A DNA stretch of 32,000 nucleotides, taken from NCBI RefSeq assembly GCF_000148385.1, contig NC_014537.1:1230001-1262000 (forward strand), given 5' to 3'. Shown piece after piece: positions 19 through 20,853 of this stretch (position 1 is its first letter; each line of letters opens with the position of its first letter). The position numbers and the translations under genes were made by a program. The DNA is from Vulcanisaeta distributa DSM 14429 (GTDB lineage: Archaea > Thermoproteota > Thermoprotei > Thermoproteales > Thermocladiaceae). The notes under the pieces were generated by a model. It was not told the origin of the DNA, did no database searches, and saw only the letters and a list, made by a program, of their open reading frames with translations.

Positions 19-903
19 ATGGAGAAGATTAAGGTCCTCAGGAAGATGGAGCCATACCTCAGGAATTATGGCTTACTACCCACAGACTTCAGGAGGAGTA
101 GGGATGGGGAGAGGATGTTTGAGGCTTTGAGGAATGTGGTTAGGAATGCGATGAGTGGTATGGGACAGGTGAAGGTCGTTAGGTTCACGGATATCGACAA
201 GTATCCAACATACGTGGTCAGTGTTAGGGAGTATAAGATCGGCGATAATTACTTCGACGTCGACCTGCAGAAGACGGCTATGAACCTAAGTAGGAAGTCC
301 ATGATGCATAAATTATTCACGAATAAGGACATCGTGGTTAAGGAGTATGCGAATGTAAAGACAATAGATATCGTACTGTGTCTGGACGTTTCGGGGAGTA
401 TGAGGGAGCTTAGTAATGGCATGCCTAAGATAGAGATTGCCAAGGATGCGGTGGCGCAGTACATTCAGTTCCTATCAAAGACAAATGATAGGCTGGCGAT
501 GGTATTATTTAACTTCAGGGCTGACGTACTATGGGGACTGCACCAGGTTAGGAGGTATTGGCAGCAAATGAATTACATGCTTAAGTATGTATATGCGGGT
601 GGTGGTACAAACTTGGCCAACGCCCTTGAGAGGTCCAGGGAGGTATTGACCAGGTCCAGGAGTAATTCTAAGCATGTGATTTGCGTAACTGATGGTAGGA
701 CTGTTAACTCAAGCATGTGTATTAAAGAGGCCGTTAGGCTTAGGAGGAGTGGCACGACAATATCTACCATAGCCATTGGCGAGAATAGTGATGATGAGTT
801 GCTGATGAGACTTTCGAAGATTGGCGGTGGCCTATTCATAAAGATTAGCAGTATTCATGACCTGGGTAAGGCATTGATAATGGATAAACTACATAGCATG
901 TGA
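19..903 (+). CDS. von Willebrand factor A (VWA) domain protein, possibly 5'-truncated by the window edge
   Basis: The ORF carries a MIDAS-type DxSxS motif (LCLDVSGSM). Later GGGTNLANAL and VICVTDG segments are typical of the VWA fold. The frame stays open upstream to base 1, so the true start may lie outside the window. Confidence 0.8.
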   Translation: MEKIKVLRKMEPYLRNYGLLPTDFRRSRDGERMFEALRNVVRNAMSGMGQVKVVRFTDIDKYPTYVVSVREYKIGDNYFDVDLQKTAMNLSRKSMMHKLFTNKDIVVKEYANVKTIDIVLCLDVSGSMRELSNGMPKIEIAKDAVAQYIQFLSKTNDRLAMVLFNFRADVLWGLHQVRRYWQQMNYMLKYVYAGGGTNLANALERSREVLTRSRSNSKHVICVTDGRTVNSSMCIKEAVRLRRSGTTISTIAIGENSDDELLMRLSKIGGGLFIKISSIHDLGKALIMDKLHSM

Positions 904-3728: not shown

Positions 3729-3839
3729 ATCGATTTGATGATTGATTAAACCCCTATTAAAGCGTTTAGTATCGTTAAAATCATTCAATAAATAGCAATT
3801 TTAGATTTAATGATGCGATGTGGCTCACGTTCAGCTAAG

Positions 3840-3847
3840 TTTAAAAA
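3840..3847 (+). promoter_or_regulatory. TATA box for the leaderless first gene of the pilin-like operon
   Basis: TTTAAAAA is centred about 26 nt upstream of the ATG at 3870. This is the canonical spacing for leaderless crenarchaeal transcripts and favours 3870 over the ATG at 3810. Confidence 0.5.
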
Positions 3848-3869
3848 CCTATCATTCAATTTAATATTA

Positions 3870-5375
3870 ATGCTCAATTCCAAATTAAATGCCAAGGGAC
3901 AGACAAGCGCAATCGAGGTGGCAATAATAATACCGGCAATAATAATCGCAATAATAGTATTCATAGCCCTAATACCCAACTATTCCTACTCCGCAGGCTC
4001 CGAAGTAAACACCTTCCAATTAAACGCCATGGCACAATCATTACTCCAATACATAATCACAAACCCAGGAAACCCACAAAACTGGGGCCTAAACGCAAGC
4101 CAACTGGCGGCATTCGGACTAGCCCAACCAAACCAACCATACAACCTAGACCCATTCAAGGTACTGGCCCTAACCTACTGGGACTACCAAAACGGAATAA
4201 ACCCACTACCACCACCATCAGAAACGACAGCAATATGTCAAGTACCGCAATCAAGTAGTGGCTTCTTTGGTTACTTAAATAGTCTCAACATTACAGGCCT
4301 ATACATAACGGACTACTTCATACTAATACCAACCACCCTATCAAAGGCATCCCTCAATTACAACAACGTGAAGGAAATGCTGGGCCTAGGCAATAACTAC
4401 GACTTCAAACTAATGATATACCCCGTGTTCAACGTAATAGTAACAAACAACACATCGACAAACACGGTAACCGTACAAGTGACCAGGTTCAACACAAACC
4501 CACAACAACCGGTACCCAACGCAACAGTACAAATAACATACACAATTATGTATTACAGCACCACAAGCGGTAACAAATTTAGTTTCGCAATATGCGCGGG
4601 TACATCACCTCCAGAGACCACCAACAATAACGGAATAGCCACCTTCAACATGGCAACCCTAAGCTGCACAAGCACGACCGGCAACCTAACCGTGAACCAC
4701 CCATACATAAGTAACGCATCTAGCATATACATAGACGCATACGCAAGCATAAGCGGGATTGGAGACCACGGCTACTTAATATGGCCGAATAACATAACAA
4801 TACCACTACTGATGGTGATGATACTACCCAACAACACAAATATGAACTCAATACTCTTCATAGACCCAAGCGCCCTCAACACGACCTGCTTAGAAATCAT
4901 CTACAACAACACTGGGAAGAAATCACTTGGGCTAAGGGTAATGGCAATATACAAATCAGTCTATGGATATGTATTTCAAGAAACCAACTTTACCCTAAAT
5001 CCAGCAAACGGCAATAGCCAACAATCATACCCAGTGCCCTGCACAACTACATACCCAGGTAATGGTAACCCAAATAGCGGCCAAAAGAGCTCGGTGTGCT
5101 ACTGGAACGTACCCAGCTCACCGATGTTCCTCATAGTCACCGTCTACAGAAATTCCCAAGGACAGGCAGGCAGTGTACCTAAGTCGCAGATCCTCGTAAT
5201 ACCCTACGGAATATCGCCACAATTCTACCTAAGCAATAGAATCATAGTCTTCGGGAAATCAATAAAGAACGCCCCAGTGGGCACGGCAACATCCCTAGTC
5301 TACATAGGAGACTCAGCCTACTACGCAACACTGTACCTATACTACGGAGGAAACGTCTTCGGCCCAATAGGGTGA
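3870..5375 (+). CDS. large type IV pilin-like (class III signal peptide) surface glycoprotein, operon gene 1
   Basis: The N-terminus MLNSKLNAKG|QTSAIEVAIIIPAIIIAIIVFIALI has a short basic leader, a Gly, then a hydrophobic helix. The mature part is rich in N/T/S/Y/P/Q, has at least 13 N-x-S/T sequons and few charged residues. An alternative upstream ATG lies at 3810. Confidence 0.75.
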   Translation: MLNSKLNAKGQTSAIEVAIIIPAIIIAIIVFIALIPNYSYSAGSEVNTFQLNAMAQSLLQYIITNPGNPQNWGLNASQLAAFGLAQPNQPYNLDPFKVLALTYWDYQNGINPLPPPSETTAICQVPQSSSGFFGYLNSLNITGLYITDYFILIPTTLSKASLNYNNVKEMLGLGNNYDFKLMIYPVFNVIVTNNTSTNTVTVQVTRFNTNPQQPVPNATVQITYTIMYYSTTSGNKFSFAICAGTSPPETTNNNGIATFNMATLSCTSTTGNLTVNHPYISNASSIYIDAYASISGIGDHGYLIWPNNITIPLLMVMILPNNTNMNSILFIDPSALNTTCLEIIYNNTGKKSLGLRVMAIYKSVYGYVFQETNFTLNPANGNSQQSYPVPCTTTYPGNGNPNSGQKSSVCYWNVPSSPMFLIVTVYRNSQGQAGSVPKSQILVIPYGISPQFYLSNRIIVFGKSIKNAPVGTATSLVYIGDSAYYATLYLYYGGNVFGPIG

Positions 5376-5383
5376 TGGGCATG
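5370..5383 (+). promoter_or_regulatory. stop/start coupling junction with embedded Shine-Dalgarno motif (GGGTGATGGGCATG)
   Basis: The TGA of gene 1 overlaps an ATG (TGATG). GGTGAT is complementary to the archaeal 16S 3' end and sits 5 nt upstream of the second ATG at 5381. Confidence 0.6.
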
Positions 5384-7561
5384 ACTGGCATTGGCAAGAG
5401 GGGTCAGGGGTTATTAATCATTGCAATACTCCTGGTACTCCTGGTACTCGTAATAGCCCTCATATATAGGGAATTCACCATGACCCCAGCATACATATAC
5501 CAAAGGAGCGTGTACTACGCCCTTAAGTACGACCCGCAGGTAATCATTGAACAACTAATACAGGTAATGAATGCCGTGGTAACGGGCTATGCGATAAACT
5601 ACAGTCAATTTCTAATGAATGAGGGAGTCGCCCTATACCTACATGCACTAACCTCCATGCCTGTGTCTTATTCATTATCTAATGTGATTGAATCACAACT
5701 AAAACTAATGATAAACAGCATATACACACCAACAGGACTAATAGTACCAGAGAACAACCTAAACACAAGCATAACAGCGGTGACCGGGTTCTACGGAGCC
5801 CTAGGAATACCCGGCATTAAGTACGTGTACTCAGGAGGCAATGCATCATCAATACTAGCAAGCGCCCAACAAACCTACGACCTACCAAGCCTAGGAATAC
5901 AACACCTAACACTAAACTACTCCATAAACTTAACAGCGTCAATAGCGGCAAACGGCACCTGTAACATAAACCCAAACATAATGATTTATAACACAACGCT
6001 GGAGTGCATATTCAACTTCAAAACAAACACATACACATGCACCGGGCCCGGAATATACACCACAGGACAAGCCAACTCACTATGGGCACCATATTACCAA
6101 GCATATTCCAAACAGCAAGAATATTGGAAAAATGGCACTGGTTGGGTGGCTTCCTCAGGCCCATACCCACTGGTGTTTGTATACCCAGTTGATGAATTAA
6201 TGGGGCAAAATGGTTTTGTAATATCCGCAACCTTCGATGTAACGCAATCACCGAATAATTACTTAGTGGGCATAAACTTCCTAACACCAACACCACCAAC
6301 CAGCGGCACAGGCAGCAACGGCTACACTATTTGCGTTATACCAAGTTCTCAGCCAAGCAATAATCAGTACAAATGTACCGTTAGCTATAGGATAAGTTCA
6401 ACTTCAACCATAATAAATGTGACAGTTAAAGTAACGCCAAATAATCCCATTAATCTATTTAGTGGTAGCATTACCGGAAATGTCTCTATATATGTTAATG
6501 GTACAGTTGTATATTCGTCAAGGATTTATTTACCCAACTTTCACATAATACCGAATACAATATTCAGTAATAATGCATACATGTTAAGTGGTTATAATTC
6601 AAGTAGTGGGAAATACATTGGTTCCTGGGTGGCGCTAATATTCAGCAACGCCGCGGTAGTGAACGCCTCAATAAAGTACTTCAACAGTTATAAACTACCT
6701 ACGAACATACAAATACAGGTATCCATAAACAACAAGCCAGCACTGGGCACAACACTCAGTGGGCTAGCTGTAACACCCACATTAGGGGCATCAAGCTTCA
6801 ACGTAAACTACGCCGTATGTAACATAACAGATAACGCAATAGTATTCAACGTACAAATGCCCTGGCCACCCACGGGCTACCCAACAACCCAATACCTAGT
6901 GCTCATTAACTACAGCAACGTAGTATTGGCACTAAATCCCTGGGCTAACCCACAGAACTCACTGATTCCGCAGGGCTATTCGGCCACGTCGTTGGTGCCA
7001 TACATGGCTTACGTACTTAATAAGTCAAGTAATGAGCTTATTGTTAATACTTACTTCATAAACCTTGGCATACCCACGCTACTATCGATATACGGCTCAA
7101 GCACGGGCTTATACATAACGAATATAATCAATGGGTATGTATATTCCGTAATGGGCCCGGTAATACCATCATCATTAAACGTGCTTAAGGTTAATAATGT
7201 ATTTCCAATGCATGTTATGTCCATATTTACGTTTAACGAGACACTGTATAACCTAGCCGCTGGATACACGGTAATAAGCCAGGTAGTTCCACCAACGCAA
7301 ACCGAAATAACTGGTTACGGAAATACGAATAATTACCCAAGTGGGCTCTACAATTGGGTCACTGAGTATGAGCATTTCCCCAACCAAACACTACCCTACA
7401 CATACTTTAACTACACAATACTTAACTGCTGGGGGACAACACAAAACAATAATGAATACGTTAATTATAACCTGTACTACATATACGTAAATGGTCAGCT
7501 TCAATATAATGGCTATACACCAACTCAATACCTACCATCATGTCAAGGTTCATATTGGTGA
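5375..7561 (+). CDS. large type IV pilin-like surface glycoprotein, operon gene 2
   Basis: Start ATG at 5375 overlaps the upstream TGA (TGATG). A second ATG at 5381 follows a GGTGAT Shine-Dalgarno motif. N-terminus is GIGKRG|QGLLIIAILLVLLVLVIALIY. About 19 N-x-S/T sequons counted by eye. Confidence 0.75.
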   Translation: MGMTGIGKRGQGLLIIAILLVLLVLVIALIYREFTMTPAYIYQRSVYYALKYDPQVIIEQLIQVMNAVVTGYAINYSQFLMNEGVALYLHALTSMPVSYSLSNVIESQLKLMINSIYTPTGLIVPENNLNTSITAVTGFYGALGIPGIKYVYSGGNASSILASAQQTYDLPSLGIQHLTLNYSINLTASIAANGTCNINPNIMIYNTTLECIFNFKTNTYTCTGPGIYTTGQANSLWAPYYQAYSKQQEYWKNGTGWVASSGPYPLVFVYPVDELMGQNGFVISATFDVTQSPNNYLVGINFLTPTPPTSGTGSNGYTICVIPSSQPSNNQYKCTVSYRISSTSTIINVTVKVTPNNPINLFSGSITGNVSIYVNGTVVYSSRIYLPNFHIIPNTIFSNNAYMLSGYNSSSGKYIGSWVALIFSNAAVVNASIKYFNSYKLPTNIQIQVSINNKPALGTTLSGLAVTPTLGASSFNVNYAVCNITDNAIVFNVQMPWPPTGYPTTQYLVLINYSNVVLALNPWANPQNSLIPQGYSATSLVPYMAYVLNKSSNELIVNTYFINLGIPTLLSIYGSSTGLYITNIINGYVYSVMGPVIPSSLNVLKVNNVFPMHVMSIFTFNETLYNLAAGYTVISQVVPPTQTEITGYGNTNNYPSGLYNWVTEYEHFPNQTLPYTYFNYTILNCWGTTQNNNEYVNYNLYYIYVNGQLQYNGYTPTQYLPSCQGSYW

Positions 7562-7569
7562 TGCCTATG
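7557..7569 (+). promoter_or_regulatory. stop/start coupling junction (GGTGATGCCTATG)
   Basis: Same architecture as the 5370 junction, between genes 2 and 3. Confidence 0.6.
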
Positions 7570-9333
7570 AACGCGCCACCCGTTAGTCATGTTCGTGGAC
7601 AGGTAAGGATCATTGAGGCCATTGCGACGACAATAATCGTGCTCATACTAGCGGCCCTACTTCCAATAATCTTCAATTCACCGACAACGACACTAAGGAG
7701 CCAGGTACAGACAAACACGGAGTGGTATGCGTATGACGTATTGCTGACGGCCATTAATAATCCACAATTCACGTACTATGTACAACATAATAACTGGAGT
7801 GCCATTCGCTCGCTCCTCAACACTATCGTTGGTCCTCAGTATGATTGGTACATTGCAGTGGTCCCGTATAGGAAGGTCGTATCTATAGTATCGGTAATGA
7901 ATTATGGGAACTACGTATTAATACCCCTGAGTATAATACCGAAAGTTTACTACGCTCCTCCACTGGGTATGCCAATATTCATGACTAGTATGAGTGTGTC
8001 AATGCTCTCGCTAAATGTCTATACAATAAACTCCATACTAGGTGGTAAGTACTCAATAAACATCACTATGCCTTTATCGAATGTAGCTTTCATACAGTGC
8101 AAAAACTTGTTTAGTACGAACATAACACAGTGCATTAAAAGTGGTAATGTTAGGATGATTAATTGGTGGCTTGAGTCCTTTGACCCACGTACTGGCGTTG
8201 CGGTGGTTTGGCTTAATGCCACCGGTAATGTTTACATGCTCGTGTCCAACGGCAGTATCCCTTACAACGTGTTAAGTAATTCCTACTGCCAGTACCCATA
8301 TTGTTACCCAATCGGTGGCGTCAGCAACATTATGTACTCCTCATTCAACGCCCCATATAACAATGAACCACAGTTCATTAACTACTACACACAGCAAGCA
8401 CTATCTCAATGCTATTCAAGTAGCAATGGCATGTATGGCGGCAGTAATTACCTAGTTATGATAAAAACAAGCGGCGGAACCGCGTCAGGACAAAGCCTAA
8501 ATGCGCCAACAACGGTCAGTTGTACCCTACCGGTAAGCGTTAATGATAACGTGGGTGGAATTAACGCATACTTAATTGGTCAATTATTGACGTCAATCCC
8601 AGGCACAAGCTTCACACTGGGCTTTAGCAATGTTGAGGTGGAACTGGGTGTCTGTTTCGTTAATGGTACGTGTATCAATGATTATACGGGATCGGTTGCT
8701 GGTGCATCATTCCCAATAAGTATTGGCAATGTAAATGCCGCCGAGACTTACGGAAATACCCATGAATACCTATCTCTAAGTGTTAATGGTAATACCGATA
8801 TCACGTCACTACCTAGCTATTACTACGTGTACCTACTCACGCTGTCGTTATCGTTAGATCTTGCGAAATGCGGAATAGATGTAAATGCATCAATATATGA
8901 CTTAGTTACAATGAGTAGCGTGTCGCTTTCATATTTCTACAATCTAACGAGTAATGATGGACTTAATTGTACGCAATTAATGTCACTTCCAAACATAACG
9001 AGCATAAGCCTAACGATGATACCCAGCAACATATTACTACAACAAAGCACACCACAGAATCCAAATAATGACGTTTACTATGTCTATAATGCCACAACCA
9101 TAGTCTATGACTTGTGGGTATCGCCAACACCAACAACGTCCTACTACATACCAATTACAATCTCTTACAACTTTGAATCCATCGATAAGTACAACGTGGT
9201 GCCTCAGCAGTACAGGGAGAGGTTCTTCCTAAGTGGGTTTGCACCCACCGCCTCTGCCTATGCCATCATTCAGCTGCCCAACGGCACCTACTACCTGGTT
9301 TACCTGGGCCTAATGAGTGTGGCTAGTGGGTGA
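7561..9333 (+). CDS. large type IV pilin-like surface glycoprotein, operon gene 3
   Basis: TGATG overlap with gene 2, with an alternative ATG at 7567 (the ORF track starts at 7540). N-terminus is PPVSHVRG|QVRIIEAIATTIIVLILAALLPIIF. Many sequons and several Cys residues. Confidence 0.7.
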   Translation: MPMNAPPVSHVRGQVRIIEAIATTIIVLILAALLPIIFNSPTTTLRSQVQTNTEWYAYDVLLTAINNPQFTYYVQHNNWSAIRSLLNTIVGPQYDWYIAVVPYRKVVSIVSVMNYGNYVLIPLSIIPKVYYAPPLGMPIFMTSMSVSMLSLNVYTINSILGGKYSINITMPLSNVAFIQCKNLFSTNITQCIKSGNVRMINWWLESFDPRTGVAVVWLNATGNVYMLVSNGSIPYNVLSNSYCQYPYCYPIGGVSNIMYSSFNAPYNNEPQFINYYTQQALSQCYSSSNGMYGGSNYLVMIKTSGGTASGQSLNAPTTVSCTLPVSVNDNVGGINAYLIGQLLTSIPGTSFTLGFSNVEVELGVCFVNGTCINDYTGSVAGASFPISIGNVNAAETYGNTHEYLSLSVNGNTDITSLPSYYYVYLLTLSLSLDLAKCGIDVNASIYDLVTMSSVSLSYFYNLTSNDGLNCTQLMSLPNITSISLTMIPSNILLQQSTPQNPNNDVYYVYNATTIVYDLWVSPTPTTSYYIPITISYNFESIDKYNVVPQQYRERFFLSGFAPTASAYAIIQLPNGTYYLVYLGLMSVASG

Positions 9334-9341
9334 TGGGTATG
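9328..9341 (+). promoter_or_regulatory. stop/start coupling junction (GGGTGATGGGTATG)
   Basis: Same architecture, between genes 3 and 4. Confidence 0.6.
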
Positions 9342-10082
9342 TCCAGGGGCTTGAGCGAGATTGTTAGTATGGTCATTATCATGGGTGTCGTAATCGCCCT
9401 GGGCCTCATATTCTACATAATCGTTGGAATCAACTTTAGTAAGGCATCAGCGAGTGTGTCGGTCTCGCAGATCGAGACCTTATTCGATAACATAGCCACC
9501 GACTTGGACAGCGCCTTGTCCAGTCCTATGCCATCTAACGTGCTTAGTTATCCGGTCTTTATGACGAATTACGGAACCTACAACGTTGCGCCATCTTTTT
9601 GTAATTTAACGATTAATGGAATAACCGCATATAGTAGTGGCGGTGTAGTATTTGGTGTACCGCCAGGCTATGGCTCAATGCCCAGCGGCTACATTAACGT
9701 GCTCCTGGGGAATAGGAGCCTAATAGTGGCTAATGAGTCGAGTAATTTATTTAATGTGGTGTTCTATGGGGCCTCCACAATCTCCGGCGTGACTTATGGT
9801 GAGTTCATTGCGTTGTATCCTAGGGTTGCTGTGCTTACCATGGGTGGTGGTCAGTATGAGTTATTGGTGCCGGTGTTGATTGGTCGTTTTAATCCCAGCC
9901 TTAGTAATTTGCTTGTGTTTAATGTTACGTATCCAATCTCGGTTAATTATAACTATGACAGGCCCGGGACGTACATCATTAATTACACATGCGGCGCCAA
10001 GAATGAATTGTTAAGTAGCGACGTTGTGCTTAATGGAAAAATTGAAATACTCCCTGTGTACATATATGTGTATTATGGGTGA
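9333..10082 (+). CDS. type IV pilin-like protein, operon gene 4 (paralogue of gene 5)
   Basis: TGATG overlap with gene 3, with an alternative ATG at 9339. N-terminus MSRG|LSEIVSMVIIMGVVIALGLIFYII closely matches the archaeal pilin N-terminal consensus (RG-L/Q-S/T-E/P plus hydrophobic helix). Confidence 0.8.
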   Translation: MGMSRGLSEIVSMVIIMGVVIALGLIFYIIVGINFSKASASVSVSQIETLFDNIATDLDSALSSPMPSNVLSYPVFMTNYGTYNVAPSFCNLTINGITAYSSGGVVFGVPPGYGSMPSGYINVLLGNRSLIVANESSNLFNVVFYGASTISGVTYGEFIALYPRVAVLTMGGGQYELLVPVLIGRFNPSLSNLLVFNVTYPISVNYNYDRPGTYIINYTCGAKNELLSSDVVLNGKIEILPVYIYVYYG

Positions 10083-10089
10083 TTGAATG
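10077..10089 (+). promoter_or_regulatory. stop/Shine-Dalgarno/start junction (GGGTGATTGAATG)
   Basis: GGTGAT spans the TGA stop of gene 4. The ATG of gene 5 follows 4 nt after the stop. Confidence 0.55.
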
Positions 10090-10929
10090 AAGTCTACGCC
10101 CAAGCCCATCCATACCCACTGGAGGCACGGACAAAGTGACGTATTGAGCACTGTTATCCTAATTGCCGTGATAATGGTCGTGAGCGCCATATTTATAGTC
10201 TTCTCCATGGTACAATTTGGTAATGAGGTTTCTCAATCATCCATCGAGTACATTGCCTCGTTTCTCACGAATGTTGCGGATGACATCGATACATTCATGT
10301 TCGTTCCAGGCGCAATACTCGTGTATCAATTACCGAATACAAATTATGGAACATATAATTTCGTAAACTCACTATGTAACATATCCATTAGCGCGGCTTC
10401 GAGTAATGTCATTAACGAGGTATCCGGCGGATTGGTATACGGTGTACCACCCACGTATTTCTCACTGCCGCCTGGGTTCAGTACGGTGTGGAGGGGTTCT
10501 ACATTTAATGGAGCACCTACATCATCATTGAATGATTTCTCATTGATCGTTAGTTACCAAACGCGCGTCTTAATGGGTACATCAATGGCTGTCCTACAGT
10601 TTGGTTATGGTAACTTCAACGGTATTAGCTATGGCACTTACTTGGTCATGATTCCTAGGGTCATGGTTATAAATGGTACTGGGCCCAGCGGGATTGGTTA
10701 CGTGTACATACCAGTACTTAACCTAGTCAGTAATCAGGGTAGGGGTAAGTTAATCATTAGCATTCAGAACATTAGTTCTCAGTCAATAGTTCTTAAAAAT
10801 GGTGGTGAATTAAAGATTAGCGAGGTCTGTCATTTCGGCAATGGCGTCAAACCAATAAGCTCAAGCGCCGTTGTGGTTGGTAATACCGTGTACGTAACCA
10901 TAGTTCAAATAGGTGTTGGCTTTGGGTGA
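10087..10929 (+). CDS. type IV pilin-like protein, operon gene 5 (paralogue of gene 4)
   Basis: N-terminus is HWRHG|QSDVLSTVILIAVIMVVSAIFIVF. It shares the blocks YGTYN..CN(L/I)(T/S)I, SGG(V/L)V(F/Y)GVPP.Y and YG.(F/Y)(I/L).(L/M).PRV with gene 4. A GGTGAT motif lies 3 nt upstream of the ATG. Confidence 0.8.
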   Translation: MKSTPKPIHTHWRHGQSDVLSTVILIAVIMVVSAIFIVFSMVQFGNEVSQSSIEYIASFLTNVADDIDTFMFVPGAILVYQLPNTNYGTYNFVNSLCNISISAASSNVINEVSGGLVYGVPPTYFSLPPGFSTVWRGSTFNGAPTSSLNDFSLIVSYQTRVLMGTSMAVLQFGYGNFNGISYGTYLVMIPRVMVINGTGPSGIGYVYIPVLNLVSNQGRGKLIISIQNISSQSIVLKNGGELKISEVCHFGNGVKPISSSAVVVGNTVYVTIVQIGVGFG

Positions 10930-10937
10930 TGGGCATG
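10924..10937 (+). promoter_or_regulatory. stop/start coupling junction (GGGTGATGGGCATG)
   Basis: Identical 14-mer to the 5370 junction, between genes 5 and 6. Confidence 0.6.
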
Positions 10938-11501
10938 GACACACTGGCCTTTATAATAATGACCGTGGCCCTCATGGTTCTGGTTATAACCTTCACCTGG
11001 TACATGAATTACTACGTATCCATGAACCTGCTCAACACGGCAAATTACATAACCTCACTGGTAACGTCAGCATTGAAGCATGAGACGGAGACCGCCATAT
11101 CAATAGCCTCCTTCAGCGATGTTACTGGGAGTTTCAACTTCACATTTATGCTACCCACATCGTCATTCTCAACCCAGGGACTCGCCATAAACTACAATAT
11201 AACCCTATACCCAAGGAAAGAAGGTGAGATAATCGAACTTATGGCAAACATAACCGTGACGGCAAGCCTAGGCCCTATAACGAGAGTAATGAGGACGACA
11301 ACTCTACTCTACGCATCAACACAGCCATATAATATTACCGCTTATAACTGCGTTAATAGAAATCGTCCAGTAAACTTAGTAAATTCCATATGGTTATATC
11401 AGGTGCCGGTGAATTTATCGAACTATATCTGTACCTGGAATAGTAAGGATATTCAGCTGGGCTATGCAGTAATAAGTATAAATAAGGGTTATCAGGGATA
11501 A
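10929..11501 (+). CDS. membrane-anchored operon gene 6 (pilin-like hydrophobic N-terminus without a basic leader)
   Basis: TGATG overlap with gene 5, with an alternative ATG at 10935. N-terminus is MDTLAFIIMTVALMVLVITFTWYM. The extracytoplasmic part contains several sequons (NFT, NIT, NIT, NLS). Confidence 0.65.
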   Translation: MGMDTLAFIIMTVALMVLVITFTWYMNYYVSMNLLNTANYITSLVTSALKHETETAISIASFSDVTGSFNFTFMLPTSSFSTQGLAINYNITLYPRKEGEIIELMANITVTASLGPITRVMRTTTLLYASTQPYNITAYNCVNRNRPVNLVNSIWLYQVPVNLSNYICTWNSKDIQLGYAVISINKGYQG

Positions 11502-11512
11502 TTCATTAAATC

Positions 11513-11929
11513 ATGAATATGAACATTAATGAATTAAGGTTGTTTCCTTGGAGCAATTACGGCGTTGTCTTCACAATACTCTTTGGTTCAAGGGCCTGGG
11601 GCAGGATTGTTAAGGGTGATTGGGACATAGCCGTTTGGCTAATAGACATTGATAAGTACGTCGACCTTCAATACTCCTTATCCCGGTTCCTCCGCGTTCA
11701 TGAGGAGTATGTAGATCTCGTGCTACTTAATAATTATGAATACCTGCCCTGCTCATTAATAATCGACATACTTGGTAGGGGCAAGGTTATTTACTACAGG
11801 GACCTGGATGAGTACTTAGACATTAAGTTGAGAGTCCTAAAGCCCTGCTTTGACTTCATGATTGATGCCGAGAAACTTGACTTACTGAGGACGCAGATAG
11901 ATGCGGTGATTAGGAGATGGGAGCGATAG
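11513..11929 (+). CDS. minimal nucleotidyltransferase (MNT/MntA-type antitoxin)
   Basis: LFGSRAWGRIVKGDWDIAVW fits the GS-x(9-10)-DxD NTase signature. The ORF overlaps the downstream HEPN gene by 13 nt. TATAAATA at 11477-11484 is a candidate promoter. Confidence 0.8.
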   Translation: MNMNINELRLFPWSNYGVVFTILFGSRAWGRIVKGDWDIAVWLIDIDKYVDLQYSLSRFLRVHEEYVDLVLLNNYEYLPCSLIIDILGRGKVIYYRDLDEYLDIKLRVLKPCFDFMIDAEKLDLLRTQIDAVIRRWER

Positions 11930-12330
11930 AGCGATTGCTTAAGCTCCTCCTCCATTACACGACATTGCTGGATAACTTAAGCGTTAATGACCTAGATGAC
12001 GTGTATAAGTACCTCTCCGCCATATACCTACTCCAGGTTCAGGCCCAGTCATTAATTGACATTATGGTTAAGGCAGCCTCGGCCCTGGGTCTCGAGGTTG
12101 AGGGTTACGTGGATGCTGGTAATAAGTTAATGAGCGTTGGTATATTGAGCGGTGAGGAATTTAGTAAATATAGGTCCATTGTTAGGTTTAGGAATATCGT
12201 GATTCACCAATATGGTATTGTGGATATTAACATAATCCGTAGGATAATCGGCAATAGGGAGTATAGGGATGTTACTAAGCTCGGTATTAAAGTTGTTGAG
12301 GAGTTACGTAGGCGTGGGGTTGATTGTTAG
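11917..12330 (+). CDS. HEPN domain protein (DUF86/HepT-type toxin)
   Basis: The C-terminal RFRNIVIHQYG matches the R-x4-H-x-Y HEPN RNase motif of the DUF86 family. It is paired with the upstream MNT gene. Confidence 0.8.
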   Translation: MGAIERLLKLLLHYTTLLDNLSVNDLDDVYKYLSAIYLLQVQAQSLIDIMVKAASALGLEVEGYVDAGNKLMSVGILSGEEFSKYRSIVRFRNIVIHQYGIVDINIIRRIIGNREYRDVTKLGIKVVEELRRRGVDC

Positions 12331-13799
12331 GCGTCCCTAACCCTAATGAGTATTGGCCTTCTGAGCGGGTTCATTAGGCCGGCCACGAAGAACTCCCTGG
12401 TGCCGAGTTGGGCTAGGGTTGCCTCGCTCACGTCTGCCAGGTCCATGTACGCGGCTATCTCCCTGAGGTCGCCCTGGGCGCTTAACCTGCTAAAGAACAC
12501 GGTGCCTAGGTTAGCCCTGATGCTGGCCCTAACATCCCTTGCAATCCTCTGGCTAGCAACGATGAGTGATAGTCCCCACTTACGGCCTTCCCTCGCCGTG
12601 GTTTCGATGATGTCGCCGCATATCGTCCACTCATTCTCAGGTACGTAGTTCTGGGCCTCATCAATTACGAAGACTAGGTCGAGCGGTGCCTTACTGGCCT
12701 TCACGAGCCTCCAGGCAGCGTCTATGACATCGGCAACAATTGCCTGCTTAACCACGAGTTCCGGATCAAGGCTTAAATCAATGACCACTAAGTTTGATTT
12801 CAATGCCATGTTTACGATATCCATCGGCGATAAAGTCCTCTTATTAAGTTCATCAAAGAACTCACTCTCTATGAAGTAGTCAATGAAGAGCCTAGCCTTC
12901 TCAACAGTCGAATCCCTGGCGCCCAACCCCCTCATGCTATCCACTAGGTGCTTCGTGAATGACGCCTTATCCCACTTAACCACTTGACTAGCTTGAGTAC
13001 TTGGCTGTGGATCAATTAATTGTGATGATTGCTGTCTCTTCATCCTCTTGTCGCCACTTACGTACGTAATTACCGCAACCTCCAGATATTCGCCAAAGGT
13101 CTGCCAATTAAGCCTAGCCTTCTCCGCAATTACTGAGGCTATCGTTGGTGGTGAGATTGAGATCTCCTTAGAGGTTATTACCCTATCCCTGAAATACGGC
13201 GTATAATCCACGCCGCTGTGGTCGAAGACTATCACGTGCTTCCCAACCCTAACCAACTCCTCAATTAACGCCTTAACAAGCCTGGACTTACCCACACCAG
13301 TGGCTCCGAAAACACCAACATGCTGATTAACAAAACCTGCGTCCAAGTTAATGGACCAACCACTATACTTATGATTACCAATGTGTATTGGTAGGTTGGA
13401 CTTTATATAATCATTAAGGAACTTACCGTCTTTAATAACGAATACCTTAGAACCTGGCGTCGGTACGTGTCTAACCTCAAGCACGGACTTAGTACTCGGC
13501 TTTAATGTGGCATAGAGCCTAACCATGGCTGAGGTGAAGGGCATGAGTATTGTCTGGTCAAGAACCTCGGGCCTATCTACGAAGGGTGACCTAACCCTAT
13601 CCCTAATGAGCGGCTCGAGCTTTGTAACATTCCTAATAACACCAAGTAACAATTCATCCTCAAGGGATGGGTCATGAATAATGACCAACTGCTCTTCCAG
13701 GGCTAGGTTCTCAGTCTTCTTATAGAATTGAATCGGCACTAAACTAACAGATGCCCCACTGGTTGTAATGCCGACCTCAATACAGCACTTATCAAGCAT
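12327..13799 (-). CDS. HerA/DUF87-type (FtsK-HerA superfamily) ATPase
   Basis: Walker A is GVFGATGVGKSRLV and Walker B is LVFVIDEAQNY. The ASQR...R region and an N-terminal barrel-like region (LVIIHDPSLEDELLLGVIRNV) resemble the HerA HAS domain. A minus-strand TATA (TTTATAA) lies about 27 nt upstream of the ATG, so the transcript is probably leaderless and monocistronic. Confidence 0.8.
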   Translation of the reverse strand: MLDKCCIEVGITTSGASVSLVPIQFYKKTENLALEEQLVIIHDPSLEDELLLGVIRNVTKLEPLIRDRVRSPFVDRPEVLDQTILMPFTSAMVRLYATLKPSTKSVLEVRHVPTPGSKVFVIKDGKFLNDYIKSNLPIHIGNHKYSGWSINLDAGFVNQHVGVFGATGVGKSRLVKALIEELVRVGKHVIVFDHSGVDYTPYFRDRVITSKEISISPPTIASVIAEKARLNWQTFGEYLEVAVITYVSGDKRMKRQQSSQLIDPQPSTQASQVVKWDKASFTKHLVDSMRGLGARDSTVEKARLFIDYFIESEFFDELNKRTLSPMDIVNMALKSNLVVIDLSLDPELVVKQAIVADVIDAAWRLVKASKAPLDLVFVIDEAQNYVPENEWTICGDIIETTAREGRKWGLSLIVASQRIARDVRASIRANLGTVFFSRLSAQGDLREIAAYMDLADVSEATLAQLGTREFFVAGLMNPLRRPILIRVRDA

Positions 13800-19182: not shown

Positions 19183-20853
19183 TTAACTAATTATTATCAC
19201 CTTCCCATACTTACATGAATATGACGTTGGATTTCCGTAGTAGTTCGTAGCATTGAGTATGAAGCCGAAGGTCGGTATTCCAAAGGCCTTAGATGCCACC
19301 ATAACGGATATGTAAAGGTTCGTGCCCTTAGCGATACCAAGCAACTCTAGTTGAGTATTTGTAACAGTGGTGCTCGATGATGGTAATATAATACTTGCTA
19401 TCCCAAGCCCTGTTGCCACAATACCCGCTATTATACTGTATGGTGAAGGCGCTGCAAGCGACACAATACCTGCTGCTAATGACCCAATGCCCGTACCCAA
19501 TTGAGCTGTGTTTATGGCATACTTAACCCCACCAAGAGTAATATAGTATATTGTCCCTAACGTACCAGTCGTATTGTAGACCAGACCATTGCACATGCTG
19601 AGTTGTTCAGCTCCAGTTAGCGGATTAGGTGTAAAGCTTGCATAATCAATTACCGAGGATGCATTCAGAACTGGATAACTAATTAACCCCTTAGATACTG
19701 CGATGGCGCCGTAGTATAACGTGCTGATTGGGCCATTACCATAATCAACACCATATGTTAACTGTTCCTGCCTAGGCACGTAAAGAATTTCTGAAACAGT
19801 CACTGAACCTAGATACCACGTATAACCAGTCGTTACATCTACATACCAGGCATCATATTTAACCAACGCCCACGTACCACCGTATGCCCAATAAAGTGAT
19901 CCAGGACCTTGCGTTGAAGACATATTTATCGATATAGCTAGCGTCCACGACTCGCCCGTGCTATAAGATGTGCCTATATCTCCATAGTTAGTTGCCATGG
20001 CATCCCAGGAAACCGTACCACTATAGTAAACACCCAAGTAAGTTAATAATTTATTATCGTACTGCCTAACGGATTTATCCCACGTGATCCAGGCCAGTGG
20101 TAGTGTTCCGTTTATGCCCAGGCATGTTGATTCCGGTATAAATTCGTAGGGTAGCGGCATGTAAATACTCGGCTGAGGACCACTAACAGAACAATTATAA
20201 AGCACATAACCACCATAAGAACCAAAGACCTGAGGGTCAAGCTCTCCTGTCGAATTAATTTTCGTCCGAATAACCTTAAAGGGTTTTATCGTATTTACGT
20301 TAATGTTTATGGAGACCACTATGTACCTTGGTACTGCCGGATTCATTGGAGCAACTTTAACTCCTCTGGCGGCTAAGACCCAACCGACGTTGTATGGTAT
20401 AATCATTGGCACGACCCACGAATCATTACCGCTTATGTACGTTACGAATACTAGAAGTGACGTATTGTAGTCATTAACCGGCACTCCAGTGCCCAACCAC
20501 TCATTGATTATAAATGACCATGCACTCTCATTGAAGGGTAGTGTGATTACACTGCCGTAGGTGTGCATCATTGGTGTGACTCCGTTGGGTAGGTTTGCGT
20601 AGATGCTTACGAATGCGTTTACTGGCTTTATTATTGAGCCATTTATTACGTAAACCCTAATTACAATGCCGGGCGCCATTGATTGTAATGACTCGTAGTA
20701 GGATATTACACCGTTGTTCACCTTAATTGACTGTATTGGCATGGGCTGGGCCTGCGCGGTGTTTAGCAATAAAATGAGGGTCGATACTATGGATAGAGCA
20801 AGTATGATTAATACCAGCGCTCTGACGTATTTTACCTGAGCCATAATCATCAT
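19183..20853 (-). CDS. secreted/membrane-anchored glycoprotein of unknown function
   Basis: The N-terminal signal peptide (VRALVLIILALSIVSTLILLLNTAQA|QP) has an AxA-type cleavage site. The body is rich in Y/G/T/S/N, poor in charged residues and has many sequons. A C-proximal Gly/Ala/Ile-rich hydrophobic region is present (GIGSLAAGIVSLAAPSPYSIIAGIVATGLGIASIIL). Confidence 0.65.
   Translation of the reverse strand: MMIMAQVKYVRALVLIILALSIVSTLILLLNTAQAQPMPIQSIKVNNGVISYYESLQSMAPGIVIRVYVINGSIIKPVNAFVSIYANLPNGVTPMMHTYGSVITLPFNESAWSFIINEWLGTGVPVNDYNTSLLVFVTYISGNDSWVVPMIIPYNVGWVLAARGVKVAPMNPAVPRYIVVSININVNTIKPFKVIRTKINSTGELDPQVFGSYGGYVLYNCSVSGPQPSIYMPLPYEFIPESTCLGINGTLPLAWITWDKSVRQYDNKLLTYLGVYYSGTVSWDAMATNYGDIGTSYSTGESWTLAISINMSSTQGPGSLYWAYGGTWALVKYDAWYVDVTTGYTWYLGSVTVSEILYVPRQEQLTYGVDYGNGPISTLYYGAIAVSKGLISYPVLNASSVIDYASFTPNPLTGAEQLSMCNGLVYNTTGTLGTIYYITLGGVKYAINTAQLGTGIGSLAAGIVSLAAPSPYSIIAGIVATGLGIASIILPSSSTTVTNTQLELLGIAKGTNLYISVMVASKAFGIPTFGFILNATNYYGNPTSYSCKYGKVIIIS

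What the first reader, a model, noticed from the sequence alone, without database searches (positions are those of the whole stretch)
3810..11501. Orphan six-gene operon of unusually large type IV pilin-like (class III signal peptide) glycoproteins
Six consecutive plus-strand ORFs of about 501, 728, 590, 249, 280 and 190 aa are joined by 1-nt TGATG stop/start overlaps or a 4-nt gap. Five of the six begin with a short basic leader ending in [K/R/H]-G-[Q/L], followed directly by about 20 uncharged hydrophobic residues: NAKG|QTSAIEVAIIIPAIIIAIIVFIAL; GKRG|QGLLIIAILLVLLVLVIAL; HVRG|QVRIIEAIATTIIVLILAALL; MSRG|LSEIVSMVIIMGVVIAL; RHG|QSDVLSTVILIAVIMVV. This is the architecture processed by archaeal prepilin peptidases (PibD/FlaK/EppA class). 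The sixth protein has the hydrophobic helix but no leader. Characterised archaeal pilins and archaellins are mostly about 120-300 aa, so 500-730 aa pilin-like proteins are atypical. The window contains no PilB/FlaI-type ATPase, PilC/FlaJ-type platform protein or prepilin peptidase; the flanks are rpl6 and a HEPN/MNT pair. I do not recognise the globular parts as any named family. The operon could encode a filament, a tip or adhesin complex, or a pseudopilus-anchored surface assembly that borrows machinery encoded elsewhere.
Basis: partly seen in the sequence, partly recalled or inferred. Interest (0 to 1): 0.85.

Follow-up and report, generated by a model that had tools for sequence, protein, structure and literature searches.

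The report
Detached pilin-gene operon of Vulcanisaeta pili
This is a real six-gene operon of large, pilin-like surface proteins from the hot-spring archaeon Vulcanisaeta, but a 2016 census of archaeal type IV pili already listed it as a pilin set encoded away from its assembly motor, so it is uncharacterised rather than new.

Summary
Six co-directional ORFs (501, 728, 590, 249, 280 and 190 aa) are joined by four TGATG overlaps and one 4-nt gap. Five carry a short basic leader ending in Gly, followed by Gln or Leu and about 20 hydrophobic residues. The Gly-Gln site is conserved across Vulcanisaeta, Thermocladium and Caldivirga. The pilin-like reading is supported. P1 and P4/P5 are homologous to proteins that lie directly next to a T2SSE ATPase and a T2SSF/TadC platform gene in 75-80 of 80 Bathyarchaeia loci. 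A Caldivirga P4/P5 orthologue has a sub-threshold Pilin_N match. [quoted passage not shown] No ATPase, TadC or peptidase lies in the 32-kb window. The locus is not new. Makarova et al. 2016 (PMC4858521) list the Caldivirga orthologues as arCOG05475 and arCOG10501-10504, "subclade 4E". They state that the Vulcanisaeta and Caldivirga loci lack the ATPase and TadC, which probably act in trans. Most likely function, by inference: minor or modular pilins forming an adhesive tip or priming complex. Nothing has been tested experimentally. Novelty is low and interest modest.

The parts
3840..3847 (+). TATA-box-like TTTAAAAA, centred about 26 nt upstream of the P1 ATG; putative promoter of a leaderless operon transcript
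   Evidence: Read directly from the sequence. The spacing fits the usual crenarchaeal TATA-to-start distance, which is established knowledge. Its function is inferred.
3870..5375 (+). P1, 501 aa. Pilin-like protein of the arCOG05475 family. Leader MLNSKLNAKG|Q, hydrophobic helix, invariant Glu at +6, conserved alpha/beta domain (NPGNPxxWG..FGL), then Ig-like beta-sandwiches.
   Evidence: Searches give the ORF. It is 44% identical over 98% of its length to the Caldivirga protein P0057, which sits at the coordinates listed as arCOG05475. AF2 model: pLDDT 71.5, pTM 0.70. Foldseek finds only generic FN3/Ig folds. The P1 profile finds 259 cluster representatives. It matches the Bathyarchaeia family next to ATPase/TadC at hhalign probability 99.5%.
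5375..7561 (+). P2, 728 aa. Largest member, arCOG10501 family. Leader ..GKRG|QGLLIIAILL with no acidic residue in the hydrophobic segment.
   Evidence: RGQ is conserved in three genera, and the leader is only M-R-G in Caldivirga and Thermocladium. Searches give the arCOG. No family, profile or structure match was found. No structure was predicted.
7561..9333 (+). P3, 590 aa. arCOG10502 family. Leader ..HVRG|QVRIIEAI with invariant G13, Q14, R16 and E19, a helical region, then beta domains including a concanavalin-A-like jelly roll. Candidate lectin/adhesin module.
   Evidence: One search shows the conservation. AF2 model: pLDDT 68, pTM 0.52. Foldseek top hits are legume lectins and other ConA-like folds, probability 1.00, target TM 0.40-0.48. 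Weak DUF2341 hits recur in the window protein and its Caldivirga orthologue. The P3 profile matches the N-terminus of a 159-aa protein in the TadC-linked locus L008 (E 3e-5 in a small database).
9333..10082 (+). P4, 249 aa. Paralogue of P5, arCOG10503 family. Leader ..SRG|LSEIV.
   Evidence: BLASTP P4 against P5: 31% identity over 199 aa, E 1e-21. Alignment. The arCOG10503 count of 5 proteins in 3 genomes fits a duplication in Vulcanisaeta.
10087..10929 (+). P5, 280 aa. arCOG10503 family. Leader ..WRHG|QSDVLSTVILIAV. Pilin-N-terminal-like protein.
   Evidence: G15 is invariant and Q16 at 90% or more. The Caldivirga orthologue P0014 hits Pilin_N PF07790 at E 0.0049, 18.1 bits, below the 25.2 cutoff. 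The family profile matches the Bathyarchaeia family encoded directly after TadC: hhalign probability 91.4%; hmmsearch gives 66 hits in the local database, the first listed being Bathyarchaeia proteins, down to E 1e-12. The L011 member of that family, the one read here, has a canonical RRA|VSPAVSTVIL signal.
10929..11501 (+). P6, 190 aa. arCOG10504 family. Hydrophobic N-terminus MDTLAFIIMTVAL with no leader.
   Evidence: the leaderless MD.. start is conserved in three genera. The census calls it a 'Predicted pilin family protein' in the same super-cluster (SC.00556) as arCOG05473 of ATPase-linked 4E loci. No link could be shown here.

Best explanation
The operon is the pilin-like module of a type IV pilus-like system, called 'subclade 4E-like' in the archaeal census. 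In the Vulcanisaeta/Thermocladium/Caldivirga lineage it has become separated from its assembly ATPase and TadC platform genes. The proposed mechanism is as follows. P1-P5 are inserted into the membrane through their class III signal peptides. The single genomic PibD-type prepilin peptidase cleaves them after the conserved Gly. A VirB11/FlaI-type ATPase plus TadC encoded elsewhere then extracts them from the membrane; Vulcanisaeta genomes carry 6-7 such ATPases. The operon contains no short PilA-type major pilin. The five families also co-occur as a fixed set next to ATPase/TadC in other archaea. The proteins therefore most likely act as minor or modular pilins that form a priming or tip complex. 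That complex would present adhesive modules (the ConA-like lectin domain of P3, the Ig-like domains of P1, the uncharacterised bulk of P2) on a filament built from major pilins encoded elsewhere. What is shown: gene structure, motif conservation, homology of P1 and P4/P5 to ATPase/TadC-linked genes, and the predicted folds. What is inferred: cleavage, glycosylation, assembly in trans, tip location and glycan binding.
For: The operon is conserved as a unit with different flanks in three genera. Gly-Gln followed by a hydrophobic stretch is conserved although the leaders vary. Glu at +6 is invariant in P1 and P3. Sub-threshold Pilin_N and Flp1_like hits fall on the N-termini of Caldivirga orthologues. 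A distant P1 homologue, P0066, lies in a metagenomic operon that starts with a T2SSF gene. In 80 Bathyarchaeia loci the P1-like gene sits in a cluster conserved in 75-80 loci: T2SSE (5e-36), T2SSF (2e-24), then five proteins with N-terminal hydrophobic segments. Profile links are P1 99.5%, P4/P5 91.4%, and P3 to an L008 protein at E 3e-5. P3 has a lectin-like fold and P1 Ig-like folds. Composition is extracellular. The census assigns the Caldivirga orthologues to T4P subclade 4E, says the ATPase and TadC are absent from these loci, and names a 4A-clade ATPase as the likely partner. It also records one PibD per crenarchaeal genome listed (including Caldivirga), and 7, 6 and 3 clade-4 ATPases in V. 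distributa, V. moutnovskia and Caldivirga. The bacterial precedent is Streptococcus sanguinis PilC, a modular pilin with Ig and ConA-lectin modules in a tip complex.
Against: There is no experimental evidence for any member. No Pfam or NCBIfam model reaches its cutoff. P2, P3 and P6 could not be linked robustly to ATPase-associated families. P6 and most distant P1 homologues have no leader, so they cannot need a prepilin peptidase. In the P5 family the -2 position is not consistently basic. In the AF2 models the N-terminal helix has low confidence and is broken after about 22 residues rather than forming one long alpha-1 helix. The partner ATPase, TadC and peptidase were not located in this genome. 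The lectin assignment rests on a model with pTM 0.52.
Confidence: 0.6

Rival explanations
1. The six proteins form a membrane-anchored cell-envelope complex that is never polymerised. Their N-terminal helices act as uncleaved or merely trimmed signal anchors. The complex sits in the pseudo-periplasm or S-layer as an adhesin, a scaffold or a stator-like base, comparable in role to archaellum FlaF/FlaG.
For: P6 and most distant P1-family members have no leader and start at the hydrophobic segment. [quoted passage not shown] No ATPase or TadC lies in cis. The models show a short transmembrane-length helix followed by a break.
Against: A strictly conserved Gly-Gln immediately before the hydrophobic stretch, with leaders of variable length, is hard to explain without processing. 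The P4/P5 homologue read in Bathyarchaeia locus L011 and the one in L008 carry canonical class III signals. The set is tightly linked to ATPase/TadC in other lineages.
Confidence: 0.2
2. The operon encodes its own filament. One or more of the smaller proteins (P4, P5, P6) would be the major subunit of a heteropolymeric pilus or pseudopilus, and the large proteins would be accessory subunits.
For: P4 and P5 are duplicated, as major pilins often are. P5-family proteins have the most pilin-like N-terminus. The genome offers several ATPases.
Against: At 190-280 aa they are larger than the PilA-type major pilins that the census assigns to this system, arCOG03739/03740, which are mostly stand-alone genes. 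No similarity to PilA, FlaB or any solved pilin was found.
Confidence: 0.15
3. The proteins are a bindosome-like set: solute- or polymer-binding proteins that merely use class III signal peptides for surface display, as the sugar-binding proteins of Sulfolobales do.
For: P3 has a lectin-like fold. In the Thermocladium loci, GH57 glycoside hydrolase genes lie a few genes away.
Against: No solute-binding-protein family hit was found and no ABC transporter genes lie next to the operon in the window or the Caldivirga locus; one Thermocladium locus has a BPD_transp_1 permease gene about 9 kb away. The flanks differ in every genus. Homologues are linked to ATPase/TadC rather than to transporters.
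Confidence: 0.04
4. The operon is a viral or mobile-element surface or adsorption module integrated into the chromosome.
For: The flanks differ between genera. AT skew is unusually high over P1-P2.
Against: There are no PHROGs hits. Matches to viral structures are only generic Ig folds with TM 0.16 or lower. GC content is the same as in the surroundings. No integrase or repeat boundary was found among the ORFs listed or the neighbours scanned. Orthologues are vertically conserved in three genera.
Confidence: 0.01

Closest known systems
Archaeal T4P-like system 'subclade 4E' pilin set: arCOG05475, arCOG05473 and arCOG10501-10504 (Makarova, Koonin and Albers 2016, PMC4858521)
   Same: It is the same locus type. 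The Caldivirga orthologues at NC_009954 1947594-1954001 are listed gene by gene. The text states that the Vulcanisaeta and Caldivirga loci lack the ATPase and TadC. The arCOG10503 count (5 proteins in 3 genomes) matches the P4/P5 duplication.
   Different: The census is purely computational. It calls arCOG10503 only a 'membrane protein', whereas here its family is linked to proteins with canonical class III signals that follow TadC. It describes arCOG10502 as 'mostly Ig-like', whereas the model here shows a ConA-like lectin fold. The Bathyarchaeia and Marsarchaeota relatives found here do not appear in the parts of the census read here.
Modular type IV pilins of Streptococcus sanguinis: PilB (vWA module) and PilC (Ig plus ConA-like lectin modules), which form a tip complex with PilA (PMC8179133, PMC9934059)
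   Same: Both have a class III signal peptide and a short pilin-like N-terminus with large adhesive modules grafted on. P3 is predicted to have the same kind of lectin fold. Both are very large for pilins (52.8 kDa for PilC). In both, several pilin-like genes sit in one operon.
   Different: The S. sanguinis proteins are bacterial, with no detectable sequence relationship to these. There the machinery is encoded in the same pil locus, and cleavage, structures and glycan binding have been shown experimentally. Here everything beyond sequence is inferred.
Bacterial minor-pilin priming/tip complexes: GspH-I-J-K of type II secretion, and FimU-PilVWX with PilY1 of type IVa pili
   Same: Both are a fixed set of four or five pilin-like proteins that co-occur with the ATPase and platform. 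One subunit (GspK; P2 here) is the largest and lacks the conserved acidic residue in its N-terminal segment.
   Different: Homology, stoichiometry and tip location are untested here. The archaeal proteins are far larger, and some (P6, distant P1 homologues) have no leader peptide.
Characterised archaeal pilins and archaellins: Sulfolobus Aap/Ups pilins, Methanococcus EpdA-E, Pyrobaculum arsenaticum pilin, FlaB
   Same: They share the class III signal peptide architecture, a presumed PibD/FlaK-type peptidase, beta-rich glycosylated heads and a VirB11-family ATPase with TadC.
   Different: Those are mostly 120-300 aa and match Pilin_N or Arch_flagellin models. P1-P3 are two to five times larger, and no window protein reaches any curated model cutoff.

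Membership tests
Type IV pilin-like proteins (class III signal peptide proteins) | A short, positively charged leader ending in Gly/Ala, followed directly by about 20 uncharged hydrophobic residues | tested here: met
   P1-P5 carry the motif, and Gly-Gln is invariant or nearly so across orthologues. P6 does not: it has no leader.
Type IV pilin-like proteins (class III signal peptide proteins) | Cleavage after the Gly by a prepilin peptidase (PibD/FlaK/EppA) | not testable with these tools
   The census reports one arCOG02298 peptidase in each crenarchaeal genome listed, Caldivirga included. The enzyme was not located in this genome and no cleavage data exist.
Type IV pilin-like proteins (class III signal peptide proteins) | A long N-terminal alpha-helix protruding from a beta-rich globular head | tested here: inconclusive
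   The AF2 models of P1 and P3 have helices 14-34 and 15-38, then a low-confidence break, then a second helix (48-64 and 46-65), then beta domains. N-terminal pLDDT is below 50-60.
Type IV pilin-like proteins (class III signal peptide proteins) | Genetic association with a VirB11/PilB-type ATPase and a TadC/PilC-type platform protein | tested here: met
   The association is absent in cis: nothing was found in the 32-kb window. It is met at family level. P1 and P4/P5 homologues are adjacent to T2SSE and T2SSF genes in 75-80 of 80 Bathyarchaeia loci and in locus L008. For P2, P3 and P6 the link is weak or not shown.
Type IV pilin-like proteins (class III signal peptide proteins) | Incorporation into a filament | not testable with these tools
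   No experimental data exist for any member (one search found only the census paper).
Pfam Pilin_N (PF07790, archaeal type IV pilin N-terminal domain) | Score at or above the gathering cutoff of 25.2 bits | tested here: not met
   The window proteins give no hit. The Caldivirga P4/P5 orthologue scores 18.1 bits, E 0.0049. The 609-aa L008 homologue gives E 0.055. These are suggestive but below the cutoff.
arCOG05475 / arCOG10501-10504 (T4P subclade 4E-like pilin set) | Orthology to the listed Caldivirga genes, in the same operon order | tested here: met
   Locus L003 genes fall at CP000852 positions identical to the Table S4 entries, except that the first gene is called 24 nt further upstream. 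P1 is 44% identical to the Caldivirga protein over 98% of its length. P5 is 40% identical over 84%. Gene order and N-terminal motifs are conserved for P2, P3 and P6.
Concanavalin A-like lectin/glucanase fold (P3 module) | Jelly-roll fold similarity to solved lectins, and a carbohydrate-binding site | tested here: inconclusive
   Foldseek gives probability 1.00 and target TM 0.40-0.48 to legume lectins, and weak DUF2341 hits recur. The model pTM is only 0.52, and no binding residues or ligand were examined.
   No hit reached threshold in Pfam, NCBIfam, PHROGs or PDB sequence searches. Viral fold matches are only generic Ig.

The most novel reading that the evidence does not exclude
The five protein families (P1, P2, P3, P4/5, P6) may be the archaeal counterpart of the bacterial minor-pilin priming/tip complex (GspHIJK, PilABC). 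On this reading they form a fixed heteromeric cap conserved across TACK archaea (Thermoproteales, Bathyarchaeia, Marsarchaeota). The cap would contain modular lectin or Ig adhesin pilins, together with leaderless members that enter the assembly without a prepilin peptidase. In Vulcanisaeta it would be a free-standing cassette able to serve any of the 6-7 ATPase/TadC motors.
Probability: 0.3. Interest if true: 0.6.

Novelty: already known. Interest (0 to 1): 0.3.

Why it matters
If the model is right, this operon is a compact, conserved example of how archaeal type IV pili gain adhesive function: through large modular minor pilins rather than through the major subunit. It would also show that a pilin cassette can be genetically separated from its motor. 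That bears on an open question raised by the 2016 census: why hyperthermophilic archaea carry so many and such diverse T4P systems. The wide occurrence of the same seven-gene cluster in Bathyarchaeia suggests the system is ecologically widespread. As a discovery, however, the locus is already catalogued. Its remaining value is as an uncharacterised target for structural and biochemical work.

Tried and rejected
- Pfam, NCBIfam and PHROGs scans of all six proteins gave nothing above cutoff.
- Profile searches of PDB sequences with the P1, P4/5 and P3 families found no relatives.
- Foldseek of the P1 model against PDB and BFVD found only generic tandem Ig/FN3 matches (TM about 0.13-0.16), so neither a specific nor a viral relationship is supported.
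- The search for related loci with the very diverse alignment A4 failed because no stretch was conserved enough. The sub-alignment A5 worked, but it returned almost only Bathyarchaeia, so Pyrobaculum, Thermoproteus and Thermofilum 4E loci were not examined directly.
- hhalign and hmmsearch of P2 and P6, and direct comparison of P3, against the Bathyarchaeia cluster families were not significant. Their correspondence rests on N-terminal motif resemblance and on the census.
- The bacterial-type promoter/terminator scan gave counts at chance level and does not apply to archaea.
- The neighbouring HerA-like ATPase (DUF87) was considered as a possible motor and rejected. It is FtsK/HerA-class rather than VirB11-class, lies on the opposite strand beyond a toxin-antitoxin pair, and is absent from the Caldivirga and Thermocladium loci.
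- The upstream VWA protein was considered as a T4P regulator, as the census suggests for such proteins. It is separated from the operon by the primase large-subunit gene (PriL) and other genes and is not conserved next to the operon in other genera.

Full report
**Observation.** The region 3810-11501 contains six consecutive + strand ORFs. With ATG starts they are:
- P1, 3870-5375, 501 aa
- P2, 5375-7561, 728 aa
- P3, 7561-9333, 590 aa
- P4, 9333-10082, 249 aa
- P5, 10087-10929, 280 aa
- P6, 10929-11501, 190 aa

Every junction also carries GGTGAT, a Shine-Dalgarno-like sequence, followed a few bases later by a second ATG. The real starts of P2, P3, P4 and P6 may therefore lie two codons further in; this is inference. 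A TATA-like TTTAAAAA at 3840-3847 sits about 26 nt upstream of the P1 ATG, which fits a leaderless crenarchaeal operon transcript (the function is inferred).

P1-P5 have a short basic leader ending in Gly, then Gln or Leu, then about 20 uncharged hydrophobic residues. P6 begins directly with the hydrophobic segment. A crude scan for this architecture over all 66 ORFs of at least 60 aa in the window recovers P2-P5. Apart from these it hits only two antisense ORFs and one Sec-type secreted protein. The six proteins have 1.1-2.6 N-glycosylation sequons per 100 aa and 5-9% charged residues. Their cytosolic neighbours have 0-1.0 sequons per 100 aa and 21-33% charged residues. This fits extracellular glycoproteins, although glycosylation itself is not shown. 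P4 and P5 are paralogues (E 1e-21).

**Organism and conservation.** The closest named relatives are Vulcanisaeta proteins (93% identity to V. souniana for P5, 89% to Vulcanisaeta sp. JCM 16161 for P1). All strong homologues come from Vulcanisaeta, Thermocladium and Caldivirga. The operon is conserved as a block in all three genera:
- six genes in Vulcanisaeta and Thermocladium
- five genes in Caldivirga, which has a single P4/5 gene

The flanking genes differ in each genus: rpL6 and MNT/HEPN in Vulcanisaeta, rpL13 and Lhr in Caldivirga, and other genes in Thermocladium. The unit under selection is therefore the operon itself. The Gly-Gln junction is invariant or nearly invariant in the P1, P3 and P5 families, and RGQ is kept in P2. 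Meanwhile leader length ranges from 3 to about 20 residues. P1 and P3 also keep an invariant Glu six residues after the predicted cleavage site. P2 has no acidic residue in its hydrophobic segment.

**What the proteins are.** No Pfam, NCBIfam or PHROGs model reaches its cutoff, and profile searches find no relative among PDB sequences. There are sub-threshold signals at the expected place. The Caldivirga P4/5 orthologue hits Pilin_N (PF07790) over residues 8-42 (E 0.0049), and the Caldivirga P1 orthologue hits Flp1_like over residues 6-29.

AF2 models built with family alignments gave the following.
- **P1** (pLDDT 71.5, pTM 0.70): an N-terminal hydrophobic helix, a second helix, a conserved alpha/beta domain and tandem Ig-like sandwiches. 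Foldseek finds only generic FN3/Ig matches in PDB and BFVD.
- **P3** (pLDDT 68, pTM 0.52): an N-terminal helix, a helical region and beta domains. Its best PDB matches are legume lectins and other concanavalin-A-like jelly rolls, at probability 1.00 and target TM 0.40-0.48. This agrees with weak DUF2341 hits that recur in P3 and its Caldivirga orthologue.

**Link to type IV pilus machinery.** Nothing in the 32-kb window resembles a T2SSE ATPase, a T2SSF/TadC protein or an A24 peptidase. This was tested with Pfam on the neighbouring ORFs and with cognate ATPase and TadC profiles against all six frames.

The families themselves are machinery-associated elsewhere.
- An exhaustive HMMER search with the P1 profile finds 259 cluster representatives, mostly 340-420 aa. 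They include Marsarchaeota and many Bathyarchaeia.
- A distant homologue, P0066, lies in a metagenomic operon reading T2SSF-609-175-357(P1-like)-159-418.
- In 80 Bathyarchaeia loci the P1-like gene sits in a cluster conserved in 75-80 loci. Its first two genes are a T2SSE ATPase (5e-36, with a PilB3_C domain) and a T2SSF protein (2e-24). Five proteins with N-terminal hydrophobic segments follow, of 291, 158, 410, 437 and 672 aa in L011.
- Profile comparisons link P1 to the 410-aa family (hhalign 99.5%) and P4/P5 to the 291-aa family (hhalign 91.4%). An hmmsearch with the P4/P5 profile gave 66 hits in the local database, the first listed being Bathyarchaeia proteins, down to E 1e-12.
- The L011 member of the 291-aa family, the one read here, has a textbook class III signal, RRA|VSPAVSTVIL.
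- P3 matches the N-terminus of the 159-aa L008 protein (RGQARILEAV; E 3e-5), which in turn matches the 437-aa family.
- P2 and P6 could not be linked.
- Most distant P1-family members, like P6, have no leader. Their initiator Met aligns with the Gly at -1, and a conserved Asp/Glu aligns with Glu16 of P1.

**Prior knowledge.** The locus is already in the literature. Makarova, Koonin and Albers (2016, PMC4858521) list the Caldivirga genes at NC_009954 1947594-1954001 in their Table S4. From the second gene onward these are the same coordinates as the genes in locus L003; the first gene start differs by 24 nt. The entries are:
- arCOG05475, "Predicted Pilin family protein", the signature of subclade 4E
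[quoted passage not shown] - arCOG10504, "Predicted Pilin family protein"

[quoted passage not shown] Table S1 gives arCOG10503 as 5 proteins in 3 genomes, which matches the P4/P5 duplication. It also shows one PibD-type peptidase in each crenarchaeal genome listed, Caldivirga included. Table S3 counts 7, 6 and 3 clade-4 ATPases in V. distributa, V. moutnovskia and Caldivirga, and no archaellum. A full-text search for these arCOG names finds no later paper, so the system remains experimentally uncharacterised.

**Most likely mechanism.** Confidence is about 0.6 that these are functional components of a T4P-like system, and lower for the details. P1-P5 would be inserted through their class III signals, trimmed by PibD after the conserved Gly, and extracted by an ATPase/TadC pair encoded elsewhere. 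Two facts point to a minor or modular pilin role in an adhesive priming or tip complex. The operon lacks a short PilA-type major pilin. The same five families also travel as a fixed set with the motor in other lineages.

The best-studied analogue is bacterial. Streptococcus sanguinis PilC is a 52.8-kDa modular pilin with an Ig module and a ConA-like lectin module, and it forms a tip complex with PilA and PilB. P3 has the same predicted module type. P2 is the largest subunit and lacks the acidic residue, which recalls GspK-type capping subunits; this is inference only.

**Rival explanations.**
- An unpolymerised membrane-anchored envelope complex (confidence 0.2). The leaderless members and the short, broken N-terminal helices in the models support it.
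- A self-contained filament with P4, P5 or P6 as the major subunit (0.15).
- A bindosome-like binding-protein set (0.04).
- A viral or mobile module (0.01). The absence of PHROGs and BFVD matches and the vertical conservation argue against it.

**Verdict.** The claims of an unrecognised family and of exceptional size are overstated. This is the Vulcanisaeta copy of a pilin cassette catalogued in 2016, and large putative minor pilins or adhesins are a described feature of Thermoproteales T4P loci. This analysis adds four modest points:
- evidence that the arCOG10503 family (P4/P5) is pilin-like rather than just a membrane protein
- a predicted lectin module in P3
- the wide occurrence of the cognate seven-gene ATPase-TadC-pilin cluster in Bathyarchaeia
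- the observation that many family members lack a leader peptide

Novelty is "already known" (computationally) and interest is about 0.3.

Noticed in passing
window 19183-20853 (- strand): A 556-aa protein with a Sec-type signal peptide (..LLLNTAQAQP), the same low-charge, N/S/T/Y-rich, sequon-rich composition as P1-P6 (DEKR 8%, 2.0 sequons per 100 aa) and a Gly/Ala/Ile-rich hydrophobic C-terminal region. It has no Pfam, NCBIfam or PHROGs hit. It may be an S-layer-like or other envelope glycoprotein.
   Followed up: partly
window 11513-12330 (+) and 12327-13799 (-): An MNT (Polbeta nucleotidyltransferase) and HEPN (HepT-like) toxin-antitoxin pair starts 11 nt after the P6 stop. A TATAAATA box lies inside the 3' end of P6 (about 11478-11485). 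Next comes a convergent 490-aa HerA/FtsK-class ATPase (DUF87, 6e-21) with weak hits to anti-phage HerA models. The trio is present in the two other contigs carrying an identical P5 (L001, L002) and absent from the Caldivirga and Thermocladium loci, so it is probably a defence or toxin-antitoxin islet unrelated to the pilin operon.
   Followed up: partly
window 5371-5376, 7557-7562, 9329-9334, 10078-10083, 10925-10930: Every internal gene junction of the operon contains GGTGAT overlapping the upstream stop codon, followed by ATG-N3-ATG at four junctions or a single ATG at P4/P5. It looks like a conserved translational-coupling or Shine-Dalgarno element, and it explains why five of the six proteins end in Gly and three begin MGM.
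   Followed up: partly
window 19-903 (+), cut by the window start: A VWA-domain protein (508 aa in locus L001) lies 3 kb upstream. The 2016 census notes vWA proteins as recurrent T4P-associated regulators. Here it is separated from the operon by PriL, a 144-aa ORF, a DUF2204 nucleotidyltransferase and rpL6, and it is not next to the operon in other genera.
   Followed up: partly
loci L011-L090 (Bathyarchaeia) and alignment A4: Most distant P1-family proteins, and the 158-aa and 437-aa cluster proteins in L011, start directly at the position that is the mature N-terminus in Vulcanisaeta (M-x3-4-I-[DE]-[HY]). They are therefore pilin-like proteins without any leader peptide, sitting in a cluster with a T4P ATPase and TadC. 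How such subunits would enter a type IV filament without prepilin processing is unexplained.
   Followed up: partly
window 26260-27543 and 27545-28954 (- strand): Two adjacent membrane proteins both match cytochrome bd oxidase subunit I (E 5e-16 and 4e-54), so the usual subunit II position is occupied by a diverged subunit-I-like protein.
   Followed up: no
window 4001-6000: The + strand has a strong AT skew (0.33 and 0.24) and a negative GC skew over P1 and the start of P2. This probably reflects the Asn/Thr/Ser/Tyr-rich codon usage of these genes rather than foreign origin, since GC content is unchanged.
   Followed up: no
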